From Nemertoderma westbladi (lineage: Eukaryota; Animalia; Xenacoelomorpha), in contig JAUCBJ010001381.1 of NCBI GenBank assembly GCA_032718475.1, forward strand, positions 1-64,000: a stretch of DNA of 64,000 bases. The letters are read 5' to 3'. The notes under the pieces were generated by a model. The model was not told the DNA's origin. It did not search any database and worked only from the letters and a program-made list of their open reading frames with translations. Of this stretch, positions 7,801-43,849 are shown piece by piece. Position 1 is the first letter of the stretch; each line of letters begins with the position of its first letter. The translations under genes and the position numbers were made by a program.

Positions 7801-8318
7801 TCCGTATAGCTCAGTATTGCTCCATATAGCTTGGTATAGCTCGGTATTGCTCCGTATAGCTCGGTATGGCTCGGAATTCACTCTGTATAAATCGGTATTG
7901 CCCTGTATAGCTCGGTATTGCTCCATATAGGTCGGTATAGGTTGGTATAGTTCAGTATAGCTACGTATAGCTCGGTATAGCTCGGTATAACACGGTATTC
8001 ACTCGGAATAACTTGGTATTGCTCCGTATAGCTCGGTATTGCTCCAAATAGCTTGGTATAGCTCGGTATTGCTCCGTATAGCTCGGTATAGCTCGGTATT
8101 CACTCCATATAACTCGGTATTGCTCCGTATAGCTCGGTATTGCTCCGTATAGGTCAGTATAGGTTGGTATAGCTCGGTATAGCTCTGTATAGCTCGGTAT
8201 AGGTTGGTATAGCTCAGTATTGCTCTGCATAGCTCGGTTTTGCTCCATATAGATCGGTATTGCACCGTATAGATCAGTATTGCTCCGTATATCTCGGTAT
8301 AGCTCGGTATTCACTCCT
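4830..8318. repeat. 10-bp satellite (GTATAGCTCG / GTATTGCTCC variants) with higher-order duplications
   Basis: Hundreds of degenerate 10-12 bp units. A ~182-bp block is duplicated at about 4980-5340. Interrupted at 7214-7661. Confidence 0.95.
7214..7661. mobile_element. 448-bp non-coding, hairpin-rich insertion (SINE-like retroposon) in the satellite
   Basis: GC-richer unique sequence flanked by the direct repeat TAACTCGGTAT (7203-7213, 7662-7672). (CT)n at the left end. At least 8 back-to-back inverted repeats. Confidence 0.6.
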
Positions 8319-10138
8319 ATTCAAGATCGAGTAAAGTAATGAGCGAGATAATTAATGAGCTGCACCGCGTCTGTATATAAAGGGTTTACCTTTACATATT
8401 CCTTATAGGCGCAACATTATATTCATTTGTTTGTCATCAATAGCTTGCATAGCTCCGCTAACAATTATTTCTGATTGTCTTACTGAAAGCACAAACTAGG
8501 CCAACTAAAACAACTGCAGAACTGAAAGAGACTCAACTAAACTACTGTGTGGCCACGAACTGTGTGTTTACATTGTATTTTAATTGCTGTAGTTCTGGAG
8601 GTGGGCTCTGTATTACTTTATTAGAATAAATATCGTAATAAATAAATGAATGTACTGTACTGTAAATGAAATTCAATAAAAATGTGCCAGATACGATAAA
8701 TTATCCACAGTTAGGATGTGATTGATTATCAGTTGAAATTAAATTGTTAAACTGTTTCATATGCAGTAAAACCTTTTTGCCATGTGGCTGTGCTTTGTGC
8801 TGGAGCCTAAAATAATTAAATTACAATATTATTATTTTATACTGTAATTATACATTTTTCGGAAAGTGTAATCTTAGGCCTAGGTTTCAGTGTGAAATAT
8901 ATAAATAATATATAATAATATATATAAAATGTTTGTAGAGGCTCTAATGTTAGACATGGACTGATGTACTTTTACGACACAGATATGGATTGGGTGCATC
9001 AGTGTGGCAATAAATTAATTAATTTTTAATTTAAATGTGTTTGAAAGCCTAAAGCAGATTTGATATTGATTTTGAATTGGTTATTAGCCACTCAATAAAT
9101 GTCGCAACCACGTAATTTCACAATATTAGCAATAATTTAATGGGAGTGCCTTAAAATATTACAATATCCATATTAAACTGTTTGCTGGACAGTGATGTGT
9201 ATACAAAGACTTCTTATTTCCATCGTTCTTATAAAATTAATTAATTTCTCAATATTGTTACCAATCATATATTTACGCTGCTGGCCTGCGCAGCAGTTTT
9301 GCCAGCAGCGCTCTAACAATAATAAACAACCCCCCCCCCCCCCCCCCCAACCTACACTCCTTCCTACTGTATTCTTATATAATATTGGAATGCTCCTGCT
9401 GTAACATAAGTCTGCTTTGCAAAGAATAATGAAATCTAAATGTGGCCGGCCTATATCTTAGCTTACTAAATATTGCTTATGAAGTGACAGGCCGATAATT
9501 TTACTAATTATTGAAATATTACTACTGGCATATATTATACAGTTGTATTTATTTATAATGGTATCTTTCACTATAAATTTTAACGAAGTTTATTAATTAA
9601 ATAAAAATTATAATTAACATAATAATATTAGTAAAGCAAGATATTCTCAACATACAGGGCATGTTAAATTAAAAATGTTGTAATATGAAATTATATTCCT
9701 GACATCAAATACAGAAACTTCGTCATATTACCATGCAGTAAGTAAAATGAAAACAATATTGTGCGATCTGGAGTTATCTGTACTATTAATTTTAATTATA
9801 TCATTGATCAAAATAATTAACAATAGAGTTAATGAATTGAAGACAAAGAACAAACAACACCAATAACTTTTTTGTTTGCATTTATAACACGAAGTTCGTC
9901 ATGGTAATTGTTGATGTTAAAATAACTGTATTATATAAAGATATAGTGGATTATTCTTATTTAACTACATGCACAGGCATTAATATAATTTAGTTAACCT
10001 GTTTATAGAAAATGTAGGGGGGTATTATAGGATTATTCTAGAACACATATATACTTAAATTTTGAATCAGATTTAGGATGTGGGAAAACGGATATTCCCC
10101 CCCTATAATAAACTAATAATGATATACATATTAGGGGG

Positions 10139-11321
10139 TGTTCGCGCTTTCAGACCTTTAGCAGTTTAACCTGCCAAATTGGGATGTCTTTTAGATGATA
10201 GATAGTCTTTAGCCTATGACAAGTATTTGATACACTACATTAGCCGAAACCAGTCTATGCGCGATCATTCACCCGCTGGATATACCCGGGAGACTGGATT
10301 CGGAAGCCTAACCGTATTGCGGGGTAGGCCTACTGTATTATTCGACTGATCGTAATATATATAATCTCTGACAAATATTATTCACTTTCGGGAAATATTA
10401 ACAGTTCCTTTAGGACGTGGCGCTTTAAGTATATAAACAGAGTTATGACTTAAACTAGACACAACGGGATGGCTATAGATTCACGTATATGGCGCATTCT
10501 TTAGGAGATGCTTCGTTATCAATCACGATCATACACAATACTGCACAATGCTGCACACCAATCTGCCGACCTTCACTAATTTTAGTCACATATAAGGAGA
10601 ACAACAGACAATACGTGTAGGGCCTATAAAATAGCATTAGATTCACTTCAAACCACTTAATGTAAGTCGCAATTGTTATATGTAACCGGTCTCTCTAACC
10701 TTTAGTATATCAAGAAGATTGGGGTGTCTGATTATTTATCAGTATTCCAAATATAATATTCCATCAACAAACATAATGAATAACCGACAGTAAAAGCAGT
10801 AAAATGTTAAGGTATAAATTGATATGATCGATTGGGTTAGGTATGGTATGTTCGGTATGTTTGTATGTATGTATGATAACGGATATACGTTCTATAATTA
10901 AGCCTACTAATGTTGGACTAAAGACTGAAACATGGAGGTTCCAAAGCCGGTGTTGTAGGCTGTGGACAAAATCACATACTGACTCAACTCCACGAGTTTC
11001 TATATACAATCTCTAACACAGAGGCAAAAAACGCTCTGATTGGTCGACCGAACAAAGAAGGAACAGAGAACAAAGAAAAGGTCCACGTATACAGCATCAG
11101 CTGTTAGCCGTCGTCATGGTAGCTACACTGTTTACAGAGGATTTGGCGCATTGCGTCATAAAATTGCTAATCATGTCCGCTAAAGTACACATAGAGAAGA
11201 AATGGCTTTTATGTCCTCTAAAACAACAGTATAGTAAGGACACGGCCTTTTATGCCTGTTAAACCAACTACAGAGTACTTTACGGGGAAAATAACCGGCT
11301 AATTACGCAAAAGCCTTTACA
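10139..11321 (-). repeat. 3' LTR (1183 bp) of the exonuclease-bearing element
   Basis: TGTTCGCG...CCTTTACA. About 10 differences from the copy at 23635-24816 by eye. Confidence 0.95.
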
Positions 11322-11399
11322 CCGCTCCCAGAAAATGGGATTTAAGTCTATAAAATATAACAAATCACAGTTTCTAAAATATAAAAATACTCTAAACAG

Positions 11400-14300
11400 T
11401 TAGTCTTTCTTACGCGGACGGCGTTTACGCAGTTTTTTGAGGCTAGCAAGAGTCCTTTTCTCTTTGGGGCAAGCCACTTTACTAGGAGGGCTGTAACTCC
11501 TGGGTGAAGGGTGCAATACAATTGCATCAGAAGGTTTAGGATTACGATCGGTGTATCCGCCGGTCGAGGTACCTGGTTGATCGATATCAACTTCAGTGGA
11601 GCGAGGTCTAACGGCCTTTAGGGCGCGTCTTAGGACAGCAGCTCCTACGGGTCCTTGACGGGTCGTCTGGACAATGGCGGTAGGCGGACCGTGAGTGGTG
11701 AGAAACTTCCTTGGTTTAATGGTTCTTTCCAGCTCACATTCTCGGGCTCGATATTCGTAGGGCCATCGAGATACTTCCTGTAACTCAGGGTGCGAGTTGA
11801 TAAATAAATCGCCATACTCAGGGTCTTGACGGATGTAATTGATCAAATGGTATGAAGTAATATCATTAGGATTGACGTTCCTAAGATATTTTCGAACAAA
11901 TTTGGTGGAAATACACTCACCAACACGCTTCATTAGTTCGTAACTCGGTGTGCGTGTTTTTTGTTCCACAGACGCGAATAAATAAGGATGGAACGAGTAA
12001 ACTCCCTCGTAAGAGCGTCCAGGGTAGTAGCGATGGCGGGACTCACAATGTAAATCCGCGTTCGCTTCCCAAGCTCGGATGTAGTGCAGGGTAATCATCT
12101 CATCTACGCTTTCTAAATCGCGGTTAAAGGGGCAATTATAACTGGCATGTCCCTTAAGTTGACAGTGGTGGCATTGGGTCATAAATTGGGGGCAGACTGC
12201 AAAAATATGCGAGTTATTAAGTCTGCAATACGCACAATAGATCTCCATCATCGGTTGTTCGTGGAAATAGGAGCAGGGTACGTCTGAGTCCATAGGGGTG
12301 AAATGGTCTCTCGATGTGCATAATCGACAACGTTTTCGAGAAACATAGTTGGCGTGTCGATAATCGTATGCGGTGAGACATTGTGGACCTTGATACCACT
12401 CCAAGACGTAATCGTTATCGCTGCTCCGGGGCGCTGTAGGCTGGATCGCTTCAGACTCTAAGCAGATTGGTTCGTCTTCCAATTGCATAGCTGAGGTAGG
12501 TGCGGCTGTCTCTGCAAGCGGACCCACTGTCTGAACTTCCACGACAGAATAACCCGTGGGTATTCGGGGTCTTTGTATAACAGATGAATGTAAGTTCTGT
12601 ATACAAACGTCCTGAAAGAGAGCAAATCCCGCGCTGTTTAGCTTCTCCGCAGCTGAGTCTCTTAGGCTGAGTTTGGTCAGAGCGCGGTCCTTGAACTGAC
12701 TATCAACGTTACGGAACGGAGTCAGAAAGCGCCTGAAACATTCGAAGCGGATGAATTTATTGTGTTCATCTAACTTGGCGAGTTTAGTTCCAAGTATTAA
12801 GGGATGGGCGCGTATGGTACTATTGCACACATCGGCTAGCCAACCGGCAAGTGCTGCGTTTTCAAAGATCGTGTATATAGCTAAGGAGGGACGAAGTGGA
12901 ACACTCATAAAGCTATACACGGCGCCAGGTGCGGTCAATGGTCCATCAAAGTATAAACGAGAATAATGATCTCCATATACTTGTTGGTAATTTATAGGAT
13001 TTCCAACCTTGAAATTCCATCTGTATTCTTGAAAGGCAAGATGTCCGATGGAGGTTCGTTGTACTTTAGTAATGCCGCTAGGTGTATTGGCATACATAGT
13101 GCGGAAGAAACCTCGGCCTTCTGACCAGGGAGCAATCAGCTGAGTATCCACGAAAGGGTATGGAATGTTCTCCATATTCCGAAAGTCGTTTTGTAGATCT
13201 CCATAAACAGCTGAGCCGATTTTAAGGATTCTTTCGTTAAACAACATCTCGAGCACGGGCTGGGGTAACATCGATCCATCGATACCCATGGCCGGTTTGC
13301 GCTCGGTGTCGGCAACGTAACGCTGCACGAGCTCGAATTGTCCATGTCGGAGTTTCTTTTGCGTCTCAGTAAGAGTTTCAAAAGAATAATCAATCACATC
13401 GGAACACGCTCGAGTAAATACGTGGGTAGAACCAGCGAGTCCTCGTATGTGTTTCATCCGTGTAGTTCCCAGTTCTCCAACCGGAACGCTACCTTCGTTG
13501 TCGTAGGTGACAACTCCATACATCTCGATAACGTTAAGAGTGTCATTCCACTCTTTAGTGGCGTTTTCGAGGGTCATTCCCACAGGATGCCACAAGGTAG
13601 CGCATTCGCTAGCATTAGGTAGGTCTCTATACTTTAAATATTGTGTGGTATATGTTTCCACATCTCCATATCGTTGTATTCTTTCCTCCTCGAATAACAC
13701 GTCAAGATTCCAGTGTACTAAACGAGTTTTGATGAATCCATCAAGATTATACGGAGGTATTGTTTCTTTCTCTATTCTGGAAACATTGTATGGTTTTCGA
13801 AATGAGTTTATTTTAACTAACTGATCCAGATGTTTATGCAGTTGTTCGAGTTCGACAAGATCGAGAGGATTTATGAGTGGTAGAAACCTCAGACTATGTG
13901 TAGGATCTTCCGGTTTTATCATGTAATATTGTGTTAGGTTGACGTAATAAGAGTGATCTTTGATCCCATAAAACGAGTCCGGTAAAGGTCTAGCGCGTAT
14001 GTTCACATCGTGTACCATGCGACGGACAAGATCCGCTCTATTGTCCGGAGGTTCAACGAGTATACCATCGACACGAGCGGCTTCGATGGGTGGACGTTGC
14101 AACATGGGAGCGTCAGCGATAAGATCTCTAGATCTTAGGTTGATATCAACCGGTTGGGGTTGTATCGTCGCAAAGAGTTTGTCTCCGAAATGGGGAACCA
14201 TCGAGGGATGAAGGATGGTTTTAGAGTAGAGATCCGTCATAAGGATTTGAGCTTCGGGTTTAGCTAAAGCTGCTTCTTCTCTCTCATCTATTTCTATATG

Positions 14301-15434
14301 TTTCTCCTCGAGCTGATTTTCCTCCGCTTGTTGTTGTAGACGCTCATCTAGGAACTCTTGTAAAGAGTAGGTTCGTCCACGTTCGATGTCCTCCTCGAGA
14401 TTTTGTACTTCTCTATCGAACTGGGGTAAAGCTAATTCCTTCACCGCTTGGACTTGTTGTTGCAATTTACGTTTCTCCAAACAATCGTAAGTTCCTTTTC
14501 CGATTTTCTGCCGAATAGCGTCTAACGCGTTTCGTACGACGCTCTCTTCGACTTCCGTAACGGGTTGTATCGAGGTGAAGCCGGGACGGTTGTGCGGGTT
14601 AAATGGCGATATTAGATGACCGCTTCCCAATCCAGCTAGGTAGGGTTGGCGAATATCTAGCGAGCCTACTACCGGAGTGCCACCAATCAACTGTTCGGGT
14701 AGCACTAGATCTTTGAACAGTGAGTACAGTTCGGGAGGATCCGTGATACTATTAGGATCAAGAGTCTGAGGTCTAACTGAGGAATGAGGAGGTCTGACCG
14801 AGTATTCCGGAACTCTGATCATTGGTTTATTCAAGGATCGTTTGAGCCGAGCGACCGTAGGTGATACGTCGAACAGGTTTCGCTCGAAACTCCCATAAGT
14901 ATATCGTGTAAAACTGTGTTTAGCGCAACGTCTCCGCGGATGTTTATGTCTTTCCGTTTGCTGATTGGGTCTAGGGCATTCGTCGCAGTAATACCAAAGA
15001 CGCACGTCCTGCAGGGGAAACGCGGGTGATCGTTCTCCAGTTTTACAATATTCCTCCATCTGTTCGAAGCTATCTGGGACGACAGGTAGCGGTCGATCGG
15101 CGGTAAGATACATCATAGTGAAATAGAGTCGTTTGAGTTCTATCATAGGATCATGATGTATACCTTGAGGATATCGAGTTTCGAGATTTTGTTGGCTGGC
15201 AATATTGAGATATGTCTCTCTCAGGAATTCCAGATAATCGTTGAAGTCGCTGGGTTTATCCGGCTCTTCAACGTCTTCCCTTTCGAGTTTGTTTCGAATA
15301 GAGTTCTCGTGTTCTATTCTCGGTTTATCGTTCCGACTCCGCTGGGTATGATATTTAAATAAAACCATTTCCCTTTCGGTATCTACATCGTCCGTATCGT
15401 TTAAATGAAAAATTATAACGTTCAATGACGTCAT
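11400..15434 (-). CDS. 1344-aa ORF: coiled coil, DEDDy-type 3'-5' exonuclease (WRN/EXD/RNase D-like), three CCHC-type zinc knuckles, basic NLS-like tail
   Basis: ExoI VVTYDNEG (~D645/E647). ExoII LPQPVLEMLFNERILKIGSAVYGD (~D746), then PFVDT. ExoIII-like PLRPSLAIYTIFE. Knuckles CRLCTSRDH..C, CAYCRLNNSHIFAVC, CHHCQLKGHASYNC. C-terminus KKLRKRRPRKKD. Confidence 0.8.
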   Translation of the reverse strand: MTSLNVIIFHLNDTDDVDTEREMVLFKYHTQRSRNDKPRIEHENSIRNKLEREDVEEPDKPSDFNDYLEFLRETYLNIASQQNLETRYPQGIHHDPMIELKRLYFTMMYLTADRPLPVVPDSFEQMEEYCKTGERSPAFPLQDVRLWYYCDECPRPNQQTERHKHPRRRCAKHSFTRYTYGSFERNLFDVSPTVARLKRSLNKPMIRVPEYSVRPPHSSVRPQTLDPNSITDPPELYSLFKDLVLPEQLIGGTPVVGSLDIRQPYLAGLGSGHLISPFNPHNRPGFTSIQPVTEVEESVVRNALDAIRQKIGKGTYDCLEKRKLQQQVQAVKELALPQFDREVQNLEEDIERGRTYSLQEFLDERLQQQAEENQLEEKHIEIDEREEAALAKPEAQILMTDLYSKTILHPSMVPHFGDKLFATIQPQPVDINLRSRDLIADAPMLQRPPIEAARVDGILVEPPDNRADLVRRMVHDVNIRARPLPDSFYGIKDHSYYVNLTQYYMIKPEDPTHSLRFLPLINPLDLVELEQLHKHLDQLVKINSFRKPYNVSRIEKETIPPYNLDGFIKTRLVHWNLDVLFEEERIQRYGDVETYTTQYLKYRDLPNASECATLWHPVGMTLENATKEWNDTLNVIEMYGVVTYDNEGSVPVGELGTTRMKHIRGLAGSTHVFTRACSDVIDYSFETLTETQKKLRHGQFELVQRYVADTERKPAMGIDGSMLPQPVLEMLFNERILKIGSAVYGDLQNDFRNMENIPYPFVDTQLIAPWSEGRGFFRTMYANTPSGITKVQRTSIGHLAFQEYRWNFKVGNPINYQQVYGDHYSRLYFDGPLTAPGAVYSFMSVPLRPSLAIYTIFENAALAGWLADVCNSTIRAHPLILGTKLAKLDEHNKFIRFECFRRFLTPFRNVDSQFKDRALTKLSLRDSAAEKLNSAGFALFQDVCIQNLHSSVIQRPRIPTGYSVVEVQTVGPLAETAAPTSAMQLEDEPICLESEAIQPTAPRSSDNDYVLEWYQGPQCLTAYDYRHANYVSRKRCRLCTSRDHFTPMDSDVPCSYFHEQPMMEIYCAYCRLNNSHIFAVCPQFMTQCHHCQLKGHASYNCPFNRDLESVDEMITLHYIRAWEANADLHCESRHRYYPGRSYEGVYSFHPYLFASVEQKTRTPSYELMKRVGECISTKFVRKYLRNVNPNDITSYHLINYIRQDPEYGDLFINSHPELQEVSRWPYEYRARECELERTIKPRKFLTTHGPPTAIVQTTRQGPVGAAVLRRALKAVRPRSTEVDIDQPGTSTGGYTDRNPKPSDAIVLHPSPRSYSPPSKVACPKEKRTLASLKKLRKRRPRKKD

Positions 15435-18400
15435 TAAGTTCGTCGTTATAGTCGTCTCGTTCTGATGGAAGAAGGAGCTGACATAAGTTCACTTGGTTTT
15501 GCCAAGTCTCGTTTTCCTTAAGGAGATCGATGGTATTCTCCTCATCGAAAAGTTGGTGGACATCGTCATTATCTGAGGAGTATGGTGTTCCCTCAGTTAG
15601 ATCATCTAACTCACTGCCCTCGACTTCCCATTCTCTCACTTGACATACCTGGTCTTTCGGTAATCTTTCCATGAGAGTTCTACGGGAAGGGCCAGTAAAG
15701 TACCAACCCACTCTAGTTCTTCCCGAATAAGCTTGTAGTGGTTGCGGTTGAGCGGGCCGTTTCTCCAATGTTTCGAGCGCTTCATGCGCGTTTTGACCGA
15801 TGAGTATTTGCACTCCAGGGTAATCGGTGTTGAATCTAGGTATTTCCAGCTGCTGGGTGAAATCGTCCTCATCCCAGTTATAAGGTTCCACTTGGGTGGT
15901 AGCGAAGTTCTTTATCGCCACCATTTTTACTGACCTTATACTATGTTCTCCTAGTTCATCCTGGGGGGTGGACAACGCACCTACATAATAATCCGCGATT
16001 ACTGTAGATTTCCAAACCTGCATAATTCCTGACATGTTTAAGCTTAGTTCGGAACTTGGGTTGTCCAGCAAAGATGTCTTCGGCTAGTTCTTTGTCGATG
16101 AATGTTCCTGTACTACCGGAGTCAAGGAATACATAACTCCTTTTAGGTCCGTGGACCCTTACCTGTACTACAGGAAATTCTCGGATTCCTACATTGGAAG
16201 GTGGCGCTTTCCAAGATGGTTGTCGATCAGAAGTAGTTAGGGTGAGGTCGCTGTCTGTGTCTTTTTCATACGTAAGTGCTCGATACACTGCGGTATTTAT
16301 CATGTAACAGGATTCACCTTCGTCGGAGAATTCGTCTGTATAGAATCCTTCCATCTCAGAACTTTGGTCAGTGTCGTTCACATCACTGAATTGGACATGT
16401 AGTTCGGAATCACTTACCTGACTCTGGCTGTTTCGCTCAAATTCAGTGTGCAACAAGATATGATGTTTCGCACCGCACTTTGCACACCTTGTGTCGGAGT
16501 AACAGGTTCGCCGTTGGTGTCCTTGTCTGAGGCAATTATAACACAACCGCTTATCCCACATGACTTCCCGTATCTCTGCTAATGATTTCTTCAGGAATTC
16601 ATCACACATATTCAAACGGTGGGTCCCGTCACATAGCGCACATTTCGGTTTGATGTTACTTACCTTATTTTGAATAACATTGTGCACACTCGTTCTTTCT
16701 TCGGGCTTTCTCACCTGAATTCTCTTAGGAGACGTAGGAGGAGTTTTTCTTACCTGTTCTCTCCTGTCATTGTTTCGAGACTTGAATTTACTTACCTGTT
16801 CTTTAGGCGTTTTATTGACATAATAAGATCTTTCAGTGTCTTTCCCGCTATCCTCTCCTTGAGAAGTCTGGCTTTCGCCGTCGTCTGTATAACACACTGG
16901 TGTTACCTTTCTCCTAGAAACGGGTTTCTCACTTACCTTGTTTTCCGGTGTCTTCTCTCTGGACTGTTTTAGGAGCTGTAATTTCACTTCTCCATCTAAG
17001 AATGACATGAGATCAGCCATGGTAGGGTCTCGTCGTTGTTGTTCCGTCATATATAACACTTTCTTATCCCAGCGTGTACCTACTCCACCCTTCGGTAAAG
17101 TAGAAGCCACGGCTCCAATAACCATAGAACTCTGATATTCATGAGACTTACCTAACCAATCTAATTGTCTACAGATCTCTTGAATCTCATCGGAAAACTC
17201 AATTATCCTGCTGCTAATGAACTTTCGGGGCGCTACTAATTTTGCATACAAATATTTAGCTATGTTATTCCTATTACCATACCTGATGTTTAGTGTATCC
17301 CAAACTTGTCTTAATCCGTCTGGATGTCCAATAAACTTTAACGCCATTAACTTGGGAGATCCTTCCAAGCACTCGATGAGGAATCTAAGTTTCTCTCCAT
17401 TAGATAGTACAGAGTTCTGTATGTTATCTTTATAATATTCATTAAAAGGTAACCATTTCATCTCATCTCCATTGAACTTGACTATCTCTCCCACCTTTAC
17501 CGCTTGACGGGCTTCGGTTCTAGCCATTTGACGCGTAAAACTTTCTTGGGCCATCGTGTTATTTAATATCGAGTTATCGGTATATAAATTTCTCGGATTA
17601 TGATCAGGTCTATAGGGAATATCATTATCAACAGGTCTATAATTACCCTTAATAGGGTTCACTATAGGAGTTTCTACTTCGCTAGCAGTATATATGCGTG
17701 TAGGCTCCACACCTTGCGCATGAGATACTTCAGACCTAACAGGTTGACACATTGTTACAGGGGGTGGTGGTATACCTCTTTGTGTATTTACTAATTTATC
17801 GCGTTCTAACGCGATACTTTGCTGCACTTCTTGCAACTCTAACCTACTTTCCCTTACTGTGCCCTTGAATTGCTGAACAGTCTCCTGCATCTGCCCGAGC
17901 AGGAGATCCATCCCCCTCGTCTCTCATCCACCCACTCGACCGCCGAAGCGGGAGCCGCCAACGTTGTAGCGGGCCGACGAGGGACAACGGGTGACAAATC
18001 ATTAATATTTCGCTCGGAGTCCAGGACATGAGCATTTACAAGGGTGGTTCTGTGTGGCACAGATAGCTTAGTGCTGTGCAGAGGGAATTTAGAGGTAGGT
18101 TCAGGGAGTACAGGTGTCTCTATCACCGAAGGGGTGGCTTCGGGAACAGGCCTAATTATTTCAGGCTCATCTACTATAGTAGGGAGTCTTTCTATTTCAA
18201 TTATTTGGTCTGTGGGTTCTGTACTACCTAAGTTTGTGTTATTTAGTTGCTTTCTAACAGCTGGGGGCAAATCCGGCAATTTCTGGCGGTGGGATATTCT
18301 TCTACGTCTGCTTAGACGAGATCTATTTCCTCCGCCTTCAGTATCGGTGGTATCGCCTTCCTCAGATGATGTATATCCCTGTCTTTTGGGAGTAGATCGA

Positions 18401-19829
18401 CTCATCATCTGCATATTACTAGCTGTTAACTGTTTATTGAAGTTGTCTTGCCTCTCTTGAAGATTTTCCAACTCTAGTTGGGTTGTCTCTTCAGATGCCC
18501 TCCGTTCTGCTTCTGCCACTGCCACTGCCGCTTTTCTTTCCACTTCGGCTGCTTTTCTTTCCGCTTCTGCCTCTGCCGCTGCCGCTTTTCTTTCCACCTC
18601 TACCGCCTTTCCTTCTGCTTCTGCCGCTGCCACTGCTGCTGCCACTGCCACTGTCTTTCTGTCTTCTATACGTTTTTTCTTTACTTGTTCTTCTTGAACC
18701 TTAGCGATGCGGATGCTTTCATTGAATTTTCTTGGTTCGCAGCTAACCTATCCACATCGATGGCGTCCAACACACGCTGGGCTCCTTCACTATTAGGGCT
18801 AAGTCCATCTAGCCTTCTCCTCAACTCTTCATCACCTAAAAAACGTTGATAGTCTGACAGATAGATGTCAATGGCATCCCTCTTATGCGGTTTCTCTGCC
18901 GTCGCTTCACTTTCCACTTGGGAAAATGTAGCGTCTGTTGATTCTCCATGGGTTGAGCGCTCATCCAGCTGAACTTTCCACTGAGCCGTTCCTTGAACCT
19001 GGAGACTCACCCGTTGAAACCAAGTCTTTACGGCAACTTGCAACAACGTGTCTTGTCTTCTTTTAGAAGCCTCCTCAAAGGCCGATAAGATTAGCCTGAT
19101 TCGTAGAATTCTTTCTCTAACTTGATAAAGCAGCTGTCCCTGCTCTTGAGGTCCTTGGGGTTGTTGAAACAGTTGTTCTTTTAGTCGCTCCATAGAGCTG
19201 AAGAATCCCTGTACATATCCTGCTGCTGACCTCTTCCACACAGCTGGATCGATGGTTTCTTTTGTTACCCCCATCCTATGTATGTCTTCCCAGGTAGCTT
19301 CCGATAAGTCAAACGGGAGTCCGGGTCTGGGGAAGTTCCATTGCGACTCGACAATAGACTTCAGTTCTTCCCTTGTGTATCCCGCATAACTATCCTTGGT
19401 CGATCACTTACTTCTCGCCCAATCAATCTGGTTTTCTTCCACCGCAATCAATACCCTAGTGAGTACGGCTGCAGGAAGGATGAGAAGGGGATCCAAATAA
19501 ACCGCATCCGTCATCTTTGCTCCGCACTCGGGTGTCAGCTCTACAGTATCCTCACTACTGGAGCTGTCGGGCCGTTGAGAAATAAGTTCTCGGCTCGCGG
19601 GTGGTTGCTGTTCCACTACTTCTTGGTCCCGCTTGACCTGAGCTCGAGTGCCTATGACAGACCTACGGTGTTGGACCAGCCTAGGTTCTGATATTACTAC
19701 TGGGGGAATGATCTTTCTTACAGTAGGAGGTGAGTTGAACTTCGGTCTAACACGTTCCACACTCCTGTCTGGGTCACATATGGTTGTATCTAGGAGACTG
19801 TCTGACAGGTTTTGCTTTGTGTCAGACAT
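15355..19829 (-). pseudogene. BEL-type gag plus aspartic protease, broken by one in-frame TGA and single-base frameshifts
   Basis: ORF pieces 19829-19404, 19274-18681, 18651-17854, 17911-15956 and 16071-15355 chain together: in-frame TGA at 19404-19406, shifts near 18725, 17913 and 16037. Motifs FNGDEMKW, EKLRFLIECLEG, triple Cys/His knuckle (CALC, CYNC, CAKC..HH), FLDSGS, VQILIGQ, TRVGW. Confidence 0.85.
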
Positions 19830-21156
19830 GTTGGTTTGTACAGTTGAATGCCTACTGCTATATTACAGTTTAAGCAAATCTAGTAATTCAGTATCACTGT
19901 TAGCCTAGTAATTAATTACCGATACTGCTACTCAGTGTAGCGTGATATATATATAATATATTAGAATACTGGTATGCTTATAGTATATATATAAGTATTA
20001 TTACAGACTAGGTTTGTCACAGAATACCGGTATGTAATTCCAGCACAAATATATATAAATATATAATAGGCCTATCGTGAATACCGGTATGCAGCTTACA
20101 CTTATAGTATATATAAGTATAATTATTAACTAGAATTAATTACAGAATACCGGTATAATTTCAGCCTAAAGTTTATAGAAATAAATATAATAAACCTATG
20201 GTAAATACCGGTATGTCAATTATTTTAAATAATTGAATTTCTGAATTTTTAGGGGTTACTTGGTTACTTTAATTTACTTTATTACCGTTATTTAAGCAGT
20301 AGTCCAACTGATATTTAGACCTAATTGATGTATTATTTATAAATCGTTTGAGTTGATTTATAATATATATATACCCGTTAAAATGGGTTTTTGTCAATAT
20401 TATTTGAAATAAATGTTATTATTTCTGGGGGGAGTCACTACACAGAAGCTGTGCGCTCTCAGTGGAGTGCTACTTGTTGGACACTAAAACAAATAATTCT
20501 AATTTACCTAAGTTACTTAATACTACAAATTACGTACAATTCGGGTGAGATTACAATCTCTAAATAAACACAAAAATTACAAGTACAAATTTTTAGGGTA
20601 ATTTTACAAGAAGTCTACTAACCAGCCTAACAAAGGGTTAGAATATCTGGTTATTACAACGGACAGGTTACTATGGTATTTGAAAATAATAAGTAGTAGT
20701 AAATATACTGCGTTGTCCAGATAGAAAAATACCACCGTCTGACGACTTATAGCCGTATCGCTATAAGTACTATGTTATGTATCACGGAGTGTTCCTACCT
20801 AGAAGTTAATTACCGCGGTCTACCAGAACCAACGTGCCTATTAACCACTTTACAACACAAATATACTGCCTACACACTAATCACCTTCGGAAAGCACTGT
20901 ACACTAAACCCTAAATTAGGTACAAGTACTTATACAACAAATAATCAGTAGTTAAAAATACTTGAACAGCTAAAAGAACCACGGTATCTGCCGGAGTGAC
21001 CAAAGCATAAAATCTCCAGTCTTTACCTACGCCAAGCAGCCCTGATGTAGTACCGGGGTTAGTTTAACTGTAACGGTATATATAACAAGCACAATTACTG
21101 TAGGAATAAACTTGGGGAATGAATGTTGCGAATAATCGCATAAACTCTGAATAATA

Positions 21157-23361
21157 AATATTACGCTGCGCGTACAGACTACTCAAACAAAATGCAGACC
21201 AAATGATGACAGACTACTATCAAGCCCAAACAAACTACGGTATATGCAGACTCCGAAATGGTTAGTTAGTATGCGTTCTAACCGAGTAGTACAACTTATT
21301 CTTTCGAGGGGGTTTACCTCACAGCTCTGGAAGCCCCTACGTTCCCAACTGGCACTTTATCGGACATACACTCTACACACACCGAAATCTCTCAAGACCT
21401 AACAACAGCCAGACAAAATCCAGCCTACAAATTATCTAAGTAAGAAATATTACGCTACCCGTACAGACTACACAAACAAGGTACAGACCAAACGCTGGCA
21501 GACTACTATCAAGCCTAAATAAACTACAATATATGCAGACTCCGAAATGGTTAGTTAGTATGCGTTCTAACCGAGTAGTACGACTTATTCTTTCGAGGAG
21601 GTTCACCTCACAGCACTGGCAGGAGGCCAAGTAAAAGTGTCTGAGTCTGTACTCCCAGATATTCCCATTGGCGATATCTCCTTTGCAGAAGTAAAGGCTG
21701 CTGCAAAGAGCATTAAGACCAATCGTGCCAGTGGAGTAGATGGTGTTCCCCCTGAGGTCTTTAAAATACCTGAGTGTTTAAAGCTCATCTATCCCATCAT
21801 AGTAGACATGTACCGTACAACAAGAGTCCCACAAGAAATGAAAACAAATAAGTTGGTGCCAGTTCCCAAGAAGGGCAACCTAACACTCTATGGTTCTTTT
21901 CGGGGAATCTCATTGATCTCGATTGCTGCAAAACTATACAATAGAATTCTATTAAATCGCATCAGGGATCCCATTGAGAGACTGCTACGTGGAAATCAGA
22001 ATGGGTTCCGTAAAGGTCGTGGGACCATGGAGCCCATTTTGGCACTTAGAAGGATAATTGAAGAATTATCAAAAAAGAAAGACAGGCATCTGGCTGTTAT
22101 CTTTGTTGACTTCTTCAAGGCCTTTGATTCAGTCTCTCGCTCACGTATGTTCAGCATACTTTCATTATATGGGATTCCTGATGAAATTATTGCAGCAATC
22201 AGATCAGTATACGATGGTTCGACAACATTTGTGTATACTGTTGATGGTGACACAGAACCATTTGAAGTGTTATGGGGCGTCCTCCAAGGAGACACACTTG
22301 CACCATTCTTGTTCATTATTGTGGTTGACTATGTTCTACGCATGTCCTTAGATCATCATAATGATGATGGGGTGATGATAACTCCACCTACTGGCTCCAG
22401 AAGTCGAGGAAATCCTGCCAAGTACCTAACTGATCTAGACTTTGCTGATGACTTAGGAGTACTCTCAGAATCATTAGAGGGAGCCCAGCGGCTCCTCAGC
22501 TCATTAGAACATGCTGCTTCTAGTGTTGGTCTTTTTATTAACTCCAGAAAGACCAAAATTCTGACAGTTAACTTTGAAAGTCCTCAGCAAGTCTCTGATC
22601 GGATGAGCATAAGCTCAAAGGATGGTATGCTTGAGCATGTGGACGACTTCTGTTACCTGGGATCATGGATCCGGAAGTCAGGTGAGGACCTTCGAATACG
22701 TAAGGGAAAGGCATGGGCAGCCTTGAATAGGCTTTGCAGGATTTGGAAGTCACCTAGAATTAATCGGAAACTTAAGGTCCGATTATTCAGAGCAGCAGTA
22801 GTTCCAGTACTCCTCTACGGGAGTCCATGCTGGGCTCTAACTGCTGAGAACACCAAATCTCTGGATGGCACATTCACAAGAATGCTACGCCGGGTACATT
22901 GTGTCAAGTACAATGCACACATCTCCAACCAGACACTATATAACATTGGAGGTGTCTCATTGGTTCCCCCAAGCTTGACACTAGAACAAAATCGCCTCCG
23001 CTTTGCAGGACATTGCTTTCGCCGTGAGGACCAGCCAGTGCATAATCTTGTACTTTGGCAGCCTCATGGAGTGAATAAGCATGGTGGACAGCCCATGACT
23101 TTCTTGAGACGCATCTTAAAGGACACTGGCCTTAAAGATGCGGATGATCTAGCAAATGTCATGGGTGATAGGGAGTTGTGGCGGTGCAATTTTGTTGACA
23201 AGCCGGCACAGCATTCTTAAAAATGCAGCTGCAATGCAGCATGCCGATCCTAGTAGCCCCTACTTTACTAACTAGTACTTTTTCGGACATATGCTCTACA
23301 CACACTACAGTCCCTTCAGACTTAACAACAGTCAGACAACAGTCTAGCCTACAAATTGTCT
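21157..23361. repeat. ~290-bp tandem duplication in the element leader; second copy split by a LINE
   Basis: Copy A is about 21157-21437. Copy B is about 21446-21622 plus 23257-23361. Confidence 0.85.
21623..23256 (+). mobile_element. 5'-truncated RTE-group LINE (RT domain and C-terminus), antisense inside the LTR element
   Basis: Uninterrupted 527-aa ORF 21637-23220 with PKKG, FRGISL, QNGFR, VDFFKAFDSV, QGDTLAPFLF, DFADD, YLGS, LLYG, RLRFAGHC. No endonuclease. It splits the duplicated leader unit at AG|CCCC. Confidence 0.9.
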
Positions 23362-23634
23362 GTACAATCTGAGCAGGCTTACACGCCTTCTGCTCAATAC
23401 TGGCCTACAAATAAATAAAACTGACAGAAATAAGTAAGCTCCAAAAGAAACAAGGGGTGTACAGTCCCTAATCTCTTAAACAGCCTACCGGTATACAATT
23501 TCACAATCGAATAATACTGCTGTACCTGTACTGCTGTAGGTACCGGTCCGGGTGGTTAGGTAGTCAGGCCTACTAGGTACCGGTTAACTGGTACTTCAGC
23601 TTTATTGCATACTGCAATACAGAAGCTATAAAAT

Positions 23635-24816
23635 TGTTCGCGCTTTCAGACCTTTAGCAGTTTAACCTGCCAAATTGGATGTCTTTTAGATGATAGATAG
23701 TCTTTAGCCTATGACAAGTATTTGATACACTACATTAGCCGAAACCAGTCTATGCGCGATCATTCACCCGCTGGATATACCCGGGAGACTGGATTTGGAA
23801 GCCTAACCGTATTGCGGGGTAGGCCTACTGAATTATTCGACTGATCGTAATATATATAATCTCTGACAAATATTATTCACTTTCGGGAAATATTAACAGT
23901 TCCTTTAGGACGTGGCGCTTTAAGTATATAAACAGAGTTATGACTTAAACTAGACACAACGGGATGGCTATAGATTCACGTATATGGCGCATTCTTTAGG
24001 AGATGCTTCGTTATCAATCACGATCATACACAATATTGCACAATGTTGCACACCAATCTGCCGACCTTCACTAATTTTAGTCACATATAAGGAGAACAAC
24101 AGACAATACGTGTAGGGCCTATAAAATAGCATTAGATTCACTTCAAACCACTTAATGTAAGTCGCAATTGTTATATGTAACCGGTCTCTCTAACCTTTAG
24201 TATATCAAGAAGATTGGGGTGTCTGATTATTTATCAGTATTCCAAATATAATATTCCATCAACAAATATAATGAATAACCGACAGTAAAAGCAGTAAAAT
24301 GTTAAGGTATAAATTGATATGATCGATTGGGTTAGGTATGGTATGTTCGGTATGTTTGCATGTATGTATGATAACGGATATACGTTCTATAATTAAGCCT
24401 ACTAATGTTGGACTAAAGACTGAAACACGGAGGTTCCAAAGCCGGTGTTGTAGGCTGTGGACAAAATCACATACTGACTCAACTCCACGAGTTTCTATAT
24501 ACAATCTCTAACACAGAGGCAAAAAACGCTCTGATTGGTCGACCGAACAAAGAAGGAACAGAGAACAAAGAAAAGGTCCACGTATACAGCATCAGCTGTT
24601 AGCCGTCGTCATGGTAGCTACACTGTTTACAGAGGATTTGGCGCATTGCGTCATAAAATTGCTAATCATGTCCGCTAAAGTACACATACAGAAGAAATGG
24701 CTTTTATGTCCTCTAAAACAACAGTATAGTAAGGACACGGCCTTTTATACCTGTTAAACCAACTACAGAGTACTTTACGGGGAAAATAACCGGCTAATTA
24801 CGCAAAAGCCTTTACA
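23635..24816 (-). repeat. 5' LTR (1182 bp) of the exonuclease-bearing element
   Basis: Direct repeat of 10139-11321. Minus strand carries TGACGCAA, CAGCTG, CCAATCAG and a TATA-like TATATAG in the putative U3. Confidence 0.95.
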
Positions 24817-24829
24817 GGGGGGCACCTAG

Positions 24830-27800
24830 GTATTAATCCATATAGCTCGGTATTGCTCCGTATAACTCGGTATTGATCTGTATAGCTCGGTATTTCTCCG
24901 TATAGGTTAGTATAGATTGGTATAGCTCGGTATAGCTCCTTATAACTCGGTATAGGTTGGTATAGCTCGGTATAGGTTGGTATAGCTCAGTATTGCTCCG
25001 TATAACTCTGTATTGCTCCATATAGCCCGGTATTGCTCCGTATAGCTCGGTATAAGCTCGGCATTCACTCCGTACAACTCGGTATTGCTCCATATAGCTC
25101 GGTATTGCTCCTTATAGCTCGGTATTGCTCTGTATAACTCTGATTGCTCCATATAGGTCGGTATTGCTCCGTATAGCTCGGTATAAGCTCGGTATTCACT
25201 CTGTATAACTCGGTATTGCTCCGTATAGCTCTGTATTGCTCCGTATAGGTCGGTATAGATTGGTATAGCTCGGTATAGGTTGGTATTCACTCCGTATAAC
25301 TTGGTATTGCTCCGTATAGCTCGGTATTTCTCCGTATAGGTTGGTATAGATTGGTATAGCTCGGTATAGCTCCGTATAACTCGGTATAGGTTGGTATAGC
25401 TCGGTATAGGTTGGTATAGCTCAGTATTGCTCCGTATAACTCTGTATTGCTCCGTATAGCCCGGTATTGCTCCGTATAGCTCGGTATAAGCTCGGCATTC
25501 ACTCCGTACAACTCGGTATTGCTCCATATAGCTCGGTATTGCTCCTTATAGCTCGGTATTGCTCTGTATAACTCTGATTGCTCCATATAGCTCGGTATTG
25601 CTCCGTAAGGCTCGGTATAAGCTCGGTATTCACTCCGTATAGCTCGGTATTGCTCCTTATAGCTCGGTATTGCTCTGTATAACTCTGATTGCTCCATATA
25701 GCTCGGTATTGCTCCGTATAGCTCGGTATAAGCTCGGTATTCACTCCGTATAACTCGGTATTGCTCCGTATAGCTCGGTATTGCTCCGTATAGGTCGGTA
25801 TCGATTGGTATAGCTCGGTATAGCTCCGTATAGCTCGGTATAGGGTGGTATAGCTCGGTATAGGTTGGTATAGCTCAGTATTGCTCCGTATAGCTCGGTA
25901 TCGCTCTGTATATCTCGGTATTGCTCCATATAGCTCGGTATTACTTCGTATAGTTCGGTATTGGGCAATTCCACCATTGATGTAACACTTACGTCGAAAA
26001 TAAAAAGTCATCTAATCAGCATAATTTTGGCATCAAAATGACGAGAAAGAATGAAATTTTCAATAAAAGTGACGGATTTTTAATATTTTTGAGGGTAACA
26101 ACTGGTTTTTCATTATTCAATATGAGGAAATTTTTTAACGTATTTTCAAATTTGTAGAAATTAATCCATGTCATTTTATAACATAATCTTACTACCATTG
26201 AAATTGTCGGAATAAGTAAGATAAATAAGAAAGGTAAATACACCAACCGAAAATTAGACATTTATTAGAAGCTATTGATAATAAAGATTAGAATATTGAC
26301 AGTATAGCATTGCATAATCAAAATTTTAAAAAAATTAGATTTGGCCTACATAATTATGTGAGTCCGTCACGAAAAGTACTTAAAGTTTTAATTTGGAGTA
26401 CACCACCCCGCATGTATATTGCACTGACAATCATTTTCCTTTGGGTTTACAGCCAATCCGATCCTTCCATTATGTCTGTGTGTTCTGTATTGCCGATGAA
26501 ATGTGTAATAGCAGCTTTACGGACTCACATATTTTTCGTTACGGACTCACCATATGGAAGGTTAGGTATGAATCATTCTGCTTTGTAAACATTATTCACT
26601 ATGTAAACTGAAAGTATTTACCTCGATTGTGCCCATCGACTCGACAGTCTGTCATATGGACTATCAAACGTATTCATACATTACCTGTAATGTGTTACTG
26701 TTGACACTGACCGACATTCTGCTTTGTGACTGTTAATAATGGTTAAAACTCCCCTCTGTGGGGCCGAGAGGGCCAAACGTCATCGACCACCAGAAGGGCT
26801 GTCGTTTCTAAGAACGCTGTAGTTCAGTGCGCCAGTGATATGGTGAATACAGTGAAATAAACGCTAAATAAGGTTAAAATAGTTAAAGTCAATAAATCAG
26901 AAATCGAAAGAATATCTTTGGAAATTAGTCTCCAACTTGTCTGGGAGAAAGAAAACTCAGCCTATTCATGGAATTTTGAACATCCATCAATGCAAATTGG
27001 ACAACCCGTCCAATTTGAAACCAGTTATTGTCACAAAGATGTTCAGCAATGATAAGCTCGAAGTTCGACACGACTTCCATGGATTGAATGAGCAAGGGAT
27101 GGATTGTGATAGTGACAATGAACCAACAACCCTTAATATATATGTCAACGCAATGTGATTGGTTGTATTTGACTTTGTTTGTGTGATTTCGGATAGAAAA
27201 CATTATCCTGGGCAGATAACGGCCACGATGGAAGATAGTGCCGATGTACGGCGAATGTTACCCAGCGGGAATGCATGGAAGTGGCCAGTGCAACTGATTA
27301 TTGTAAATCATAAATACAATGAAATATTGTTCAAAATTGATATTCCGAGCCAAAAAACTTCCCGTGATCGTGGTATTTATATTGTTAAAGTACTGGAAAT
27401 TGGTCACTTTGACTTCTTTGTAATATAAATCTATAGGATAGACTATGACAATATACACCAATTTACTCAATCGCATACATACATCAAATACATAAAGTAT
27501 TTTTTTTCATCAACTATTTAGAAACATAACTACCGTGAGTGATTTAAAGTACATTTTTAAATGTATATGATTTAAGCCATACGCTATTAAATCTATGTTA
27601 TGAATTTAATAAATGAACACCACAAACATTCACGATTCAGGTGAAATTCGTTTTCTAAAAAATAAAAGTCCATAACGATTTAAGTGTGAGTCCGTAACAT
27701 TTTTTTCTGTGAGTCCGTAACGAACAATTGACCCTAAAAATGTGGTTTAGCACCACATATTTCTGGTACTAATTTAAAAATTTAAAAATTTGATGTATCT

Positions 27801-31850: not shown

Positions 31851-32941
31851 GGCCGCAATACAAACTAGTATATAAATGAGAAATTACGGGGTTTTGCCAG
31901 GTTATTGTTTCTGATTTAAGGGGTTTTACAGGTTGTTATTTCTGATTTAAGGGGTTTTGCCAGGTGGACTGAATTCCATATACTTGAATTTACGGTGTTT
32001 TGCAAGCCAATTATTGACTTGTGTGGTTCTGCCTCGAAGTGGGCATAAGTTACGGGGAACTGCCTTTGGCTTATAACTCAAAAATGGCTGGTAGAAAAGC
32101 TTCGGGGTTCTGCCAGACGAAAAAGCCGATATCGAATTACCCAAAAAGTCAAAAACATGAAAATCGAAAAAAATCGACTTAGGGGGTTCTGCCTTGAAGG
32201 TGACGAAAATAGCCTCGCGTCGTTGCAAAACCAAGCAAGATTTGAACGCTCATATCTCAGCTATTTTTCAACGAAATTCAAATTGTGTTACATATTTGGA
32301 ATCCTTGCAGGGCCAAACAGCTATAAGGTAGAAGAATAACTGCGGTGTAACTGGTATAATATCGCTGGAGACACTTTTTTTAAACGCATGTAGCTAAAGA
32401 TTGAAAGCAAAAATCGAATTCTTGCTCACCCAGTCAGTGGTCGGGAGATGAAACTATCTCTGTTTCAAATTTCATGCAATCTCATTACGATTTGTAAAAA
32501 AATTAGGGGGGGGGGGTGTAGGCGTGTCACTGAAATACGGAAAAAATGTTCTAGAACAAATAAAGTGTTCTAGAACCTTAATTTGATAGCTAACATTGTT
32601 TTAATTCATGATTGTATTGTAAGGAATTAAATTGAAAGTTTAATTGTTTATAAAAAACACTCCAGTTACAGAAAACTCCAATTTCTAGAATATGTAATAA
32701 CGCAAAGATTTATTAATTGGAATTGTAAGAAAAGTTTACAATTGGTTTAGGAAAATAGTAATAATTATGTAACTTTCTTATCTAGTCATTTACATTCAAA
32801 TGAATTAGCAAGTTTATGAATGAAATCAAATCATAATTATACTAATGAAACGAACAAATCTATTACCAGCTCTACCATAGTACTGGTACAATATATACCT
32901 ACGTTATCTGAGAGTACTGTTGGCCTGCAATAATAGTCAAA

Positions 32942-43500: not shown

Positions 43501-43630
43501 TACTCTTTCATCTAACAAAATTTCTTAACTTTAAATTAATAAACTTTCATTTTATACCATAAACAAATAATCAACTTACTACATACTGTATAATGTAATG
43601 TCAACAATAATCAACTTGTTTCCTTTATTT

Positions 43631-43849
43631 TTATTTACAATCACTACAGTACCATGTTTCTTCCGCAGGTTCATCAATAATACCGACACAATGAAAATGG
43701 AACCAATCAAAACAACGGTCACAACTTATCATTGATGGACCTTCTATAAACCATGGAATGCCACAAATCGGGCAAGGGTAAATTTCTGATTCATCTACAC
43801 CGTGATCGGTTATGGGTTTATGAGTACGATAGTTTAACACTGCGACCAC
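43631..43849 (-). CDS. PHD finger immediately downstream of and overlapping the Gypsy integrase end (+1 frame)
   Basis: CPIC..MISCDRCFDWFHFHCVGI..WYCSDC matches the C4HC3 PHD consensus. Confidence 0.85.
   Translation of the reverse strand: MVAVLNYRTHKPITDHGVDESEIYPCPICGIPWFIEGPSMISCDRCFDWFHFHCVGIIDEPAEETWYCSDCK

What the first reader, a model, noticed from the sequence alone, without database searches (positions are those of the whole stretch)
10139..24816. LTR element in which pol is replaced by a DEDDy 3'-5' exonuclease plus zinc-knuckle module
Seen: BEL-type gag and protease run, via a single +1 shift near 15400, into 1344 codons with no RT, RNase H or integrase motifs. Instead there are Exo I/II/III-like motifs (ExoIII has YxxxE rather than YxxxD), three knuckles, a coiled coil and a basic tail. 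Repaired, the pieces form one ~2800-aa polyprotein. The LTRs differ at about 10 of 1183 sites and the TSD is intact, so the element moved recently. One stop and four 1-bp shifts over 8.4 kb are roughly what that divergence predicts, so the ORF was probably intact at insertion. Known: DEDDy exonucleases have been reported as extra ORFs or extensions in some rotifer and nematode LTR elements that still carry pol. Inference: this is a non-autonomous family that supplies capsid, protease and an RNA-binding nuclease, borrows RT/IN in trans, and may use the nuclease for primer or RNA processing or against small-RNA silencing.
Basis: partly seen in the sequence, partly recalled or inferred. Interest (0 to 1): 0.88.

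Follow-up and report, generated by a model that had tools for sequence, protein, structure and literature searches.

The report
Pol-less retrotransposon with RNase-D-like cargo
A young BEL/Pao jumping gene has capsid and protease genes but no copying or integrating enzymes of its own, and carries a long, conserved gene without known relatives whose likely RNase D-like domain probably binds RNA rather than cutting it; the missing enzymes were likely deleted at the joint between the protease and this gene.

Summary
Confirmed: LTRs 99.2% alike, 5-letter target duplication, BEL/Pao gag and protease, then a ~1335-codon frame without RT, RNase H or integrase. The frame is real family cargo: related contigs differ by 13% with almost no gaps. 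An RNase D/WRN-type DEDDy domain is moderately supported (NCBIfam RNase D, E 0.004, only family hit; own profile, 0 of 500 shuffles reach it). Corrections: (1) the in-register ExoIII motif is Y858-x3-S862, not YxxxE, so the fourth acidic residue is likely missing and the domain may be a pseudo-nuclease; (2) the '+1 shift' at 15406-15412 does not look like a one-letter lesion: contigs from four runs leave this copy on both sides, one for about 390 letters, which fits a deletion joint where relatives carry extra sequence, most likely pol; (3) an unmentioned antisense LINE RT fragment sits in the leader. A continuous Gag-protease-nuclease polyprotein as family norm is therefore unproven (about 30%). 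Gag+protease-only derivatives (ATHILA, Fatima) and DEDDy cargo (rotifer Juno/Vesta) are known; this cargo in BEL/Pao was not found in my searches. New variant of a known kind.

The parts
10134..10138 (.). target-site duplication GGGGG (left copy)
10139..11321 (-). 3' LTR (TG...CA), 99.2% to the 5' LTR
11322..11329 (-). polypurine-tract-like run just before the 3' LTR
   Evidence: sequence; function inferred
11400..15406 (-). long accessory frame, about 1335 codons from the joint (1362 stop to stop), no RT/RH/IN; no database relative for aa 560-1260; coding constraint among copies
12132..12329 (-). three CCHC-type zinc knuckles (aa 1054-1119)
   Evidence: (zf-CCHC_3 E 0.002)
12819..13577 (-). 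RNase D/WRN-type DEDDy-like domain (aa ~638-890): D663, E665, D764 present; ExoIII Y858 with Ser862 at the fourth acidic position; ~40-aa insertion after ExoI
15406..15412 (-). out-of-frame joint between protease linker and long frame; likely deletion or recombination breakpoint
15412..16170 (-). BEL-type aspartic protease (DSG motif, C-terminal GW..GP) and acidic linker, one frame change near 16.1 kb
16171..17923 (-). BEL gag core: DUF1759 (17093-17476) and nucleocapsid knuckles
17924..19829 (-). long N-terminal Gag extension with Ala/Glu-rich coiled-coil-like repeats; one stop and two frame changes
19830..23634 (-). 5' leader with ~124-nt and ~290-nt repeated units; no TGG-type primer site and no self-priming complement found
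21629..23256 (+). 5'-truncated LINE (RT frame open 21571-23220, no endonuclease), antisense, secondary insertion; RTE-like by recalled motifs
23635..24816 (-). 5' LTR
24817..24821 (.). target-site duplication GGGGG (right copy)

Best explanation
This is a recently inserted BEL/Pao element with gag and protease but no RT, RNase H or integrase, likely a pol-deleted derivative of a family that carries a long conserved accessory gene behind pol, and that gene likely encodes an RNA-binding, probably catalytically impaired RNase D-like domain with zinc knuckles. Shown: absence of pol in this copy, the young LTR pair, coding constraint on the accessory frame among copies, and that other copies carry different sequence at the protease/accessory joint. 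Inferred: the missing piece is RT-RH-IN; the derivative is copied and integrated with enzymes from a complete relative (as ATHILA and Fatima gag+protease forms are thought to be), or lost pol after insertion; in intact relatives the accessory protein grips the element's own RNA (3' end or a stem-loop through the exonuclease fold, single strands through the knuckles) to shield it or escort it to export and packaging, in the way Egalitarian, Exuperantia and Exd1 use the fold for binding. It can act in trans, since derivatives without it exist.
For: No pol domain in the frame; loose ends face each other across the break, at 15406 (28, 15, 1, 3 contigs in runs X1, X3, X4, X5) and 15412 (6, 2, none listed, 1); X5 record 30 (581 letters) fits only 15412-15598, with 21 other letters, and about 390 letters lie on nothing in 15150-15750, although other X5 contigs do fit the start of the long frame; none of the 4 listed one-letter length differences lies at the break; depth falls to 27-61 thousand at 15402-15485 in X1 against 0.2-1.2 million in the adjoining bins, and to 0 at 15423-15464 in X4. 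Constraint: 11 listed contig pieces in the frame, 3841 letters, 12.8% other letters, 3 gaps, against 58 gaps in 5 flank/leader pieces of 2148 letters; 8 of 11 listed variable places in its first 75 codons are third positions, p 0.009. Domain: the only 2 NCBIfam hits among 18,950 models are RNase D (E 0.004, 0.016); a profile of 35 bacterial WRN/EXD2-type exonucleases scores 13.2 bits, 0 of 500 shuffles reach it (best 1.9); the broad 69-sequence profile aligns ExoI on D663/E665 and ExoIII on Y858; 46 of 69 fetched exonucleases have L[ST]xxQxxYxxxD, and the only in-register match in the frame ends in Ser862. Joints 12480->15286 (X4 depth 2918, also X5) and 11553/11562->14282/14291 (X1, X3) skip the domain. 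Precedents: ATHILA (passages), Fatima (passages), rotifer ORF3 and TelKA2n (main text), binding without catalysis (passages).
Against: No RT or integrase sequence of this family was seen directly; no genome is held and no listed contig is long enough. The start of the long frame shows no match to the BEL integrase tail (234 of 500 shuffles score as well; no DUF5641 at E 10), which a simple post-integrase extension might be expected to show. Other loose ends near the linker (15562, 15565, 15406) are only 12-87 letters long, so a short alternative linker without pol is not excluded for many copies. Domain support is moderate: Pfam and PDB sequence searches miss it, the narrow profile places ExoI and ExoIII elsewhere, the single-sequence fold failed (pLDDT 32), and the alignment-guided model is circular. 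Whether Ser862 is shared by other copies is unknown. The RNA-binding role is analogy only.
Confidence: 0.52

Rival explanations
1. One reading: an established non-autonomous lineage in which pol was replaced, Gag-protease-exonuclease-knuckles being one polyprotein joined by a short variable linker; this copy only has a mosaic or damaged linker.
For: Depth is about equal on the conserved blocks either side of the linker (X1 0.9-1.0 vs 1.1-1.2 million); most loose ends at 15562 and 15406 are short; no integrase-tail match at the start of the frame; both sides are under coding constraint.
Against: Equal depth is also expected if pol lies between; one contig 89% alike in the linker runs on about 390 letters without reaching the conserved frame start; no one-letter variant is listed at the break; no listed contig bridges the joint (4830 pieces not shown).
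Confidence: 0.3
2. The domain is an active 3'-5' exonuclease (Glu876 or another residue serving as fourth ligand, or only this copy being altered) that trims element RNA, primer ends or small RNAs.
For: D663, E665, D764 and Y858 are kept; the alignment-guided model puts its last helix at aa 867-892, which holds Y872-x3-E876, and two prolines follow Y858; rotifer cargo exonucleases keep their acidic residues, with a DEED variant.
Against: Spacing from the PL[ST] motif fixes Y858, not Y872, as the ExoIII tyrosine; Y872 lines up with the later non-catalytic 'IY'. The Ser codon differs from Asp codons at two letters, unlikely as decay in a copy whose LTRs differ by under 1% (inference).
Confidence: 0.25
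3. The resemblance to exonucleases is chance; the frame is an orphan accessory gene (for example an RNA-export factor like Cer1 CERV) with knuckles only.
For: No Pfam/PDB hit; failed single-sequence fold; strong similarity limited to about 60 residues around ExoII.
Against: A blind library scan gives only RNase D; four motif blocks appear in the right order, with correct ExoIII spacing; 0 of 500 shuffles.
Confidence: 0.12
4. The antisense LINE RT in the leader is a part of the element and supplies its reverse transcriptase.
For: The RT frame is open over 549 codons inside the LTRs.
Against: Antisense, 5'-truncated; contigs run on past 21629 into longer copies (45 in X1; a 2356-letter X5 record), 21 X4 contigs end at 23256 with unlike flanks (agreement 0.48), and an X3 contig joins 21593 to 23276 without it.
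Confidence: 0.03

Closest known systems
BEL/Pao (Belpaoviridae) LTR retrotransposons
   Same: DUF1759 gag, three-part Gag knuckle region, DSG protease with GW..GP tail, TG...CA LTRs, 5-letter target duplication.
   Different: No RT, RNase H (Peptidase_A17) or integrase/DUF5641; long orphan accessory frame; 1.18-kb LTRs; no TGG primer site.
Non-autonomous gag+protease-only ATHILA (Brassicaceae) and Fatima RLC_famc1.4/1.5 (wheat)
   Same: Intact LTR ends, gag and protease kept, RT-RH-IN gone; ATHILA forms arise by a ~3-kb internal deletion, and some ATHILA carry an ORF downstream of gag-pol (passages).
   Different: Those are plant Ty3/gypsy-type lineages; here an animal BEL/Pao; their ORF has no assigned function; parent with pol not shown here, and whether the deleted form is itself amplified is not shown.
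DEDDy ORF3 of bdelloid rotifer Juno/Vesta LTR elements and Terminons (PMC5408684)
   Same: RNase D-like DEDDy domain as accessory gene behind the protease/pol region; a non-autonomous TelKA2n keeps its ORF3 without most of pol.
   Different: Rotifer elements keep pol and the invariant acidic residues; not BEL/Pao; here the domain lies in a ~1335-aa protein with knuckles and likely lacks the fourth acidic residue. Kinship of the two domains not tested (sequences not available).
Egalitarian, Exuperantia, Exd1 (exonuclease folds used for RNA binding)
   Same: DEDD fold whose known job does not need catalysis; Exu and Exd1 lost the active site (passages of 10.1101/2025.08.03.668247).
   Different: Host genes; no sequence match to them was found; Egl keeps all catalytic residues.

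Membership tests
BEL/Pao LTR retrotransposon (autonomous) | BEL-type gag (DUF1759) with knuckles and aspartic protease | tested here: met
   (5 of 5 hits are BEL polyproteins)
BEL/Pao LTR retrotransposon (autonomous) | LTRs with TG...CA and a 4-6-letter target duplication | tested here: met
BEL/Pao LTR retrotransposon (autonomous) | RT-RNase H-integrase after the protease | tested here: not met
   so a BEL/Pao-derived, non-autonomous element, not an autonomous member
BEL/Pao LTR retrotransposon (autonomous) | primer-binding site after the 5' LTR | tested here: inconclusive
   no TGG-type site (the neighbouring BEL has one); no self-priming complement (best 7 letters, 41 of 100 shuffles as good); host tRNA set not available
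Non-autonomous gag+protease derivative (ATHILA/Fatima type) | gag and protease present, RT-RH-IN absent, ends intact | tested here: met
Non-autonomous gag+protease derivative (ATHILA/Fatima type) | autonomous partner with the same ends | not testable with these tools
   no genome; contigs too short; the window's complete BEL has unrelated ~260-letter LTRs
Non-autonomous gag+protease derivative (ATHILA/Fatima type) | several insertions sharing the same deletion joint | tested here: inconclusive
   no listed contig bridges 15406-15412, list cut
DEDDy 3'-5' exonucleases (RNase D/WRN/EXD group) | sequence or fold similarity to the family | tested here: inconclusive
   moderate: for; negative; circular
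DEDDy 3'-5' exonucleases (RNase D/WRN/EXD group) | ExoI DxE and ExoII D | tested here: met
   D663, E665, D764 (ExoI placed only by the broad profile)
DEDDy 3'-5' exonucleases (RNase D/WRN/EXD group) | ExoIII YxxxD | tested here: not met
   Y858-x3-S862 in register
DEDDy 3'-5' exonucleases (RNase D/WRN/EXD group) | metal-dependent 3'-5' nuclease activity | not testable with these tools
   needs a bench assay

The most novel reading that the evidence does not exclude
A self-sustaining non-autonomous BEL/Pao lineage that has swapped its whole RT-RNase H-integrase cassette for a 1300-residue pseudo-exonuclease/zinc-knuckle protein, made as one polyprotein with Gag and protease and kept by selection across copies 13% apart, trading an RNA-shielding or anti-silencing factor for the partner's enzymes.
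Probability: 0.27. Interest if true: 0.72.

Novelty: new variant of a known kind. Interest (0 to 1): 0.46.

Why it matters
Either way a BEL/Pao family carries a large, selected accessory protein with an RNase D-like domain and knuckles, for whose aa 564-1063 no relative exists among 1.84 billion representatives; exonuclease cargo was described from rotifer non-BEL elements and I found none for BEL/Pao. If the domain is a binding-only pseudo-nuclease, the element parallels host RNA-transport and piRNA factors (Egl, Exu, Exd1) and offers a testable case of transposon RNA protection or counter-silencing. If pol is merely deleted, the layout is the animal counterpart of the known ATHILA/Fatima gag+protease forms and the interest lies in the cargo alone.

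Tried and rejected
Relatives of the long frame: none in the word-index search (aa 560-1200 near lengths; aa 560-1260 shorter), none in the representative library (aa 564-1063), none in metagenome or viral contigs, none in phages, only noise in plasmids (5 rows at E 2-10, one of them an RNase D), none among earlier findings by sequence or place. The first ~560 residues were searched only against Pfam, NCBIfam and PDB sequences. Gag relatives with flanks: none. ESM Atlas gave no answer. Single-sequence AlphaFold failed. The model built with 34 bacterial exonucleases as alignment reached pLDDT 54 (78 of 256 residues at 70-90) and matches RNase D, EXD2, NrnC, WRN, but this is circular and not counted; VIA-align was not obtained. 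Idea that the frame begins with a BEL integrase tail: not supported. Idea that it begins with the BEL protease-RT linker: not supported (132 and 201 of 500 shuffles; 966 of 2000); both tests used only six sequences and have low power. Self-priming, spliced or not: not supported; hairpin after the 5' LTR not significant (z -1.4). No RNA holder listed; X5 is only guessed to be RNA, so nothing is said on expression. The 11 top rows inside the long frame show no third-position bias (5/3/3); they mostly mark letters private to this copy, and both tables are cut to the best-supported rows. Depths are sums over contigs and are not copy numbers. Nematode exonuclease precedent: paper not held, not found in listings. 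Figures and supplements of the rotifer paper were not seen; they bear on how its motifs compare.
Full report
1. The element. A self-comparison of the window gives two repeats, 10139-11321 and 23635-24816, 99.16% alike over 1183 columns (9 mismatches, 1 gap), with TG...CA ends and GGGGG on both outer sides. The coding strand is minus. Six pieces are separated by one stop and four frame changes. Pfam finds DUF1759 (E 2.8e-11) and weak protease and knuckle matches in 17923-15956; a longer-protein search with this piece returns 5 proteins, all BEL/Pao polyproteins at 20-26% identity; a profile of these five scores the gag-protease piece 130.7 bits and the protease C-half 9.8 bits, and finds nothing pol-like in the last frame. 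That frame is 1362 codons stop to stop; chance of such a frame is about 1e-28. So 'gag and protease, then a long frame without RT, RNase H or integrase' is confirmed for this copy. One LTR indel in 2366 letters predicts 3.6 over 8.4 kb, so the count of breaks is compatible with decay, on very thin statistics.

2. The leader holds a + strand frame of 549 codons with a LINE-type RT (RVT_1 E 6.7e-29, DUF6451; 'RTE-like' is my recalled label). It is a secondary insertion: 45 X1 contigs and a 2356-letter X5 contig run on beyond 21629, 21 X4 contigs leave at 23256 with unlike flanks, and an X3 contig joins 21593 to 23276. Without it the element is about 13.05 kb. No TGG-type primer site follows the 5' LTR, unlike the neighbouring BEL. 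Earlier notes of this scan report self-priming BEL/Pao elements; here the best complement in the LTR is 7 letters (41 of 100 shuffles as good) and the best spliced one 6 (61 of 100), so priming is unexplained.

3. The long frame is real family cargo. No genome is held. Five public runs hold part of the stretch (7 listed); four were laid. All parts of the element are far deeper than the flanks in X1, X3 and X4 (depth is no copy number). The 11 listed contig pieces inside the frame (3841 letters) differ at 12.8% with 3 gaps; 5 flank or leader pieces (2148 letters) differ at 6.3% with 58 gaps. Of 40 listed variable places around the joint, 8 of 11 on the frame's side and 18 of 29 on the protease side are third positions (p 0.009, 0.001; 130 rows not shown). 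Joints 12480->15286 (X4 depth 2918, X5) and 11553->14282 / 11562->14291 (X1, X3) show derivatives without the exonuclease-like part: it is likely dispensable in cis.

4. The joint. If the last frame change were a one-letter lesion of a continuous frame, other copies should align across it with a one-letter gap. One search lists 4 such gaps, none there. Instead contigs leave this copy on both sides: at 15406 looking upstream (28, 15, 1, 3 contigs in X1, X3, X4, X5) and at 15412 looking downstream (6, 2, none listed, 1). X5 record 30 fits 15412-15598 at 89% and its other ~390 letters lie on nothing in 15150-15750, although other X5 contigs fit the conserved start of the frame. Depth sinks at 15402-15485 (X1 27-61 thousand against 0.2-1.2 million in the adjoining bins; X4 zero at 15423-15464). 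No listed piece bridges the joint (4830 not shown). This is the pattern of a breakpoint where relatives hold a longer piece; since RT follows here in BEL/Pao (established layout; P0001-P0005), pol is the likeliest content. It is not shown: further loose ends at 15562-15673 show a variable linker, most are short, and a short pol-free linker in many copies remains possible. Tests for remnants of the integrase tail or of the protease-RT linker at the start of the frame were negative but weak.

5. The domain. Large searches find no relative. Pfam and PDB sequences miss it. A blind NCBIfam scan gives only RNase D (TIGR01388 E 0.004, NF008089 E 0.016, far below cut-off). Profiles built from bacterial exonucleases fetched score aa 725-786 at 13.2, 6.1 and 2.8 bits (35, 53, 69 sequences), with 0 of 500 shuffles reaching any; hhalign gives probability 90% for the narrow profile and 20% for the broad one. 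The broad profile sets ExoI on D663/E665, ExoII on D764 and ExoIII on Y858; the narrow one and MAFFT place the outer motifs elsewhere. Motif spacing decides ExoIII: 46 of 69 exonucleases read L[ST]xxQxxYxxxD, 40 of 69 have W 3-4 residues before it, and the single match of that spacing in 1362 residues is YFDGPLTAPGAVY-SFMS, with Ser862 at the acidic position. I put the DEDDy fold at about 85% and impaired catalysis at about 65% given the fold. Structure prediction adds nothing independent. Three knuckles follow at aa 1054-1119.

6. How it likely works. Shown: this copy encodes (in broken form) Gag and protease and lacks its own RT and integrase; LTR identity and target duplication show recent reverse transcription and integration. 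Inferred: either a complete relative supplied the enzymes or pol was lost after insertion. In intact relatives the accessory protein likely binds the element's RNA through the exonuclease fold and knuckles to protect it or to route it to export and packaging; precedents are folds that bind without needing catalysis (Egl, Exu, Exd1; passages) and an element-encoded RNA export factor (Cer1 CERV; abstract). An active trimming nuclease and a counter-silencing decoy are the rivals.

7. Comparison and novelty. DEDDy accessory genes are described behind pol in rotifer Juno/Vesta elements, with catalytic residues intact, and a non-autonomous TelKA2n keeps its ORF3 (PMC5408684, main text parts 1-3 of 5; passages of PMC6431247 and PMC5718144). 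Gag+protease-only forms with a ~3-kb pol deletion are the commonest ATHILA type (934 of 2322; passages) and occur in wheat Fatima (passages). Earlier unchecked notes of this scan list Gypsy elements with live or dead exonuclease cargo. My searches found no BEL/Pao element with exonuclease cargo (0 papers; 79; passages of PMC8220671 and PMC2774666 have no 'exonuclease'; earlier findings), within an open-access library only. Verdict: new variant of a known kind; the headline 'pol replaced family-wide in one polyprotein' has about 30% support; interest 0.46.

Noticed in passing
window 37510-56300 (-): A second, complete-type BEL/Pao element with ~260-letter LTRs and a TGG-type primer site, partly duplicated in tandem at about 99% (gag, RT, Peptidase_A17, integrase pieces). 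Its LTRs are unrelated to the element studied.
   Followed up: partly
window 43818-48989 (-): An unbroken 1723-codon Gypsy-type gag-pol frame (protease, RT, RNase H, integrase, SH3) nested in that BEL element.
   Followed up: no
window 51339-52533 (+ in the element's sense): A solo LTR 78% alike to the studied LTR, lacking its last ~16 letters, stands where the other BEL copy has ~1.2 kb of pol: replaced rather than inserted. Shows an older related LTR family.
   Followed up: partly
window 32912-35275 (+): A 787-codon frame with about 15 tandem 24-residue repeats; no convincing Pfam or NCBIfam family. Upstream lie inverted repeats 28797-29154 / 32208-32539 and opposed 19-letter minisatellites.
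   Followed up: partly
window 23560-23634 (-): No recognisable primer site after the 5' LTR; a short hairpin instead (not significant); this spot is also poorly covered by other copies. Priming unexplained.
   Followed up: partly
window 12480/15286 and 11553/14282: Deep contigs show internally deleted derivatives that drop the exonuclease-like domain but keep the start of the frame or its tail.
   Followed up: no
window 4834-8310 and 24841-25961: The element lies between arrays of one 10-letter satellite; 36-letter satellites at 56311-59224.
   Followed up: no
window 14987-14918 (-), aa 168-191 of the long frame: A further Cys/His cluster (CxxC...HxH...CxxH) near the start of the long frame, possibly a metal site; seen by eye.
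   Followed up: no
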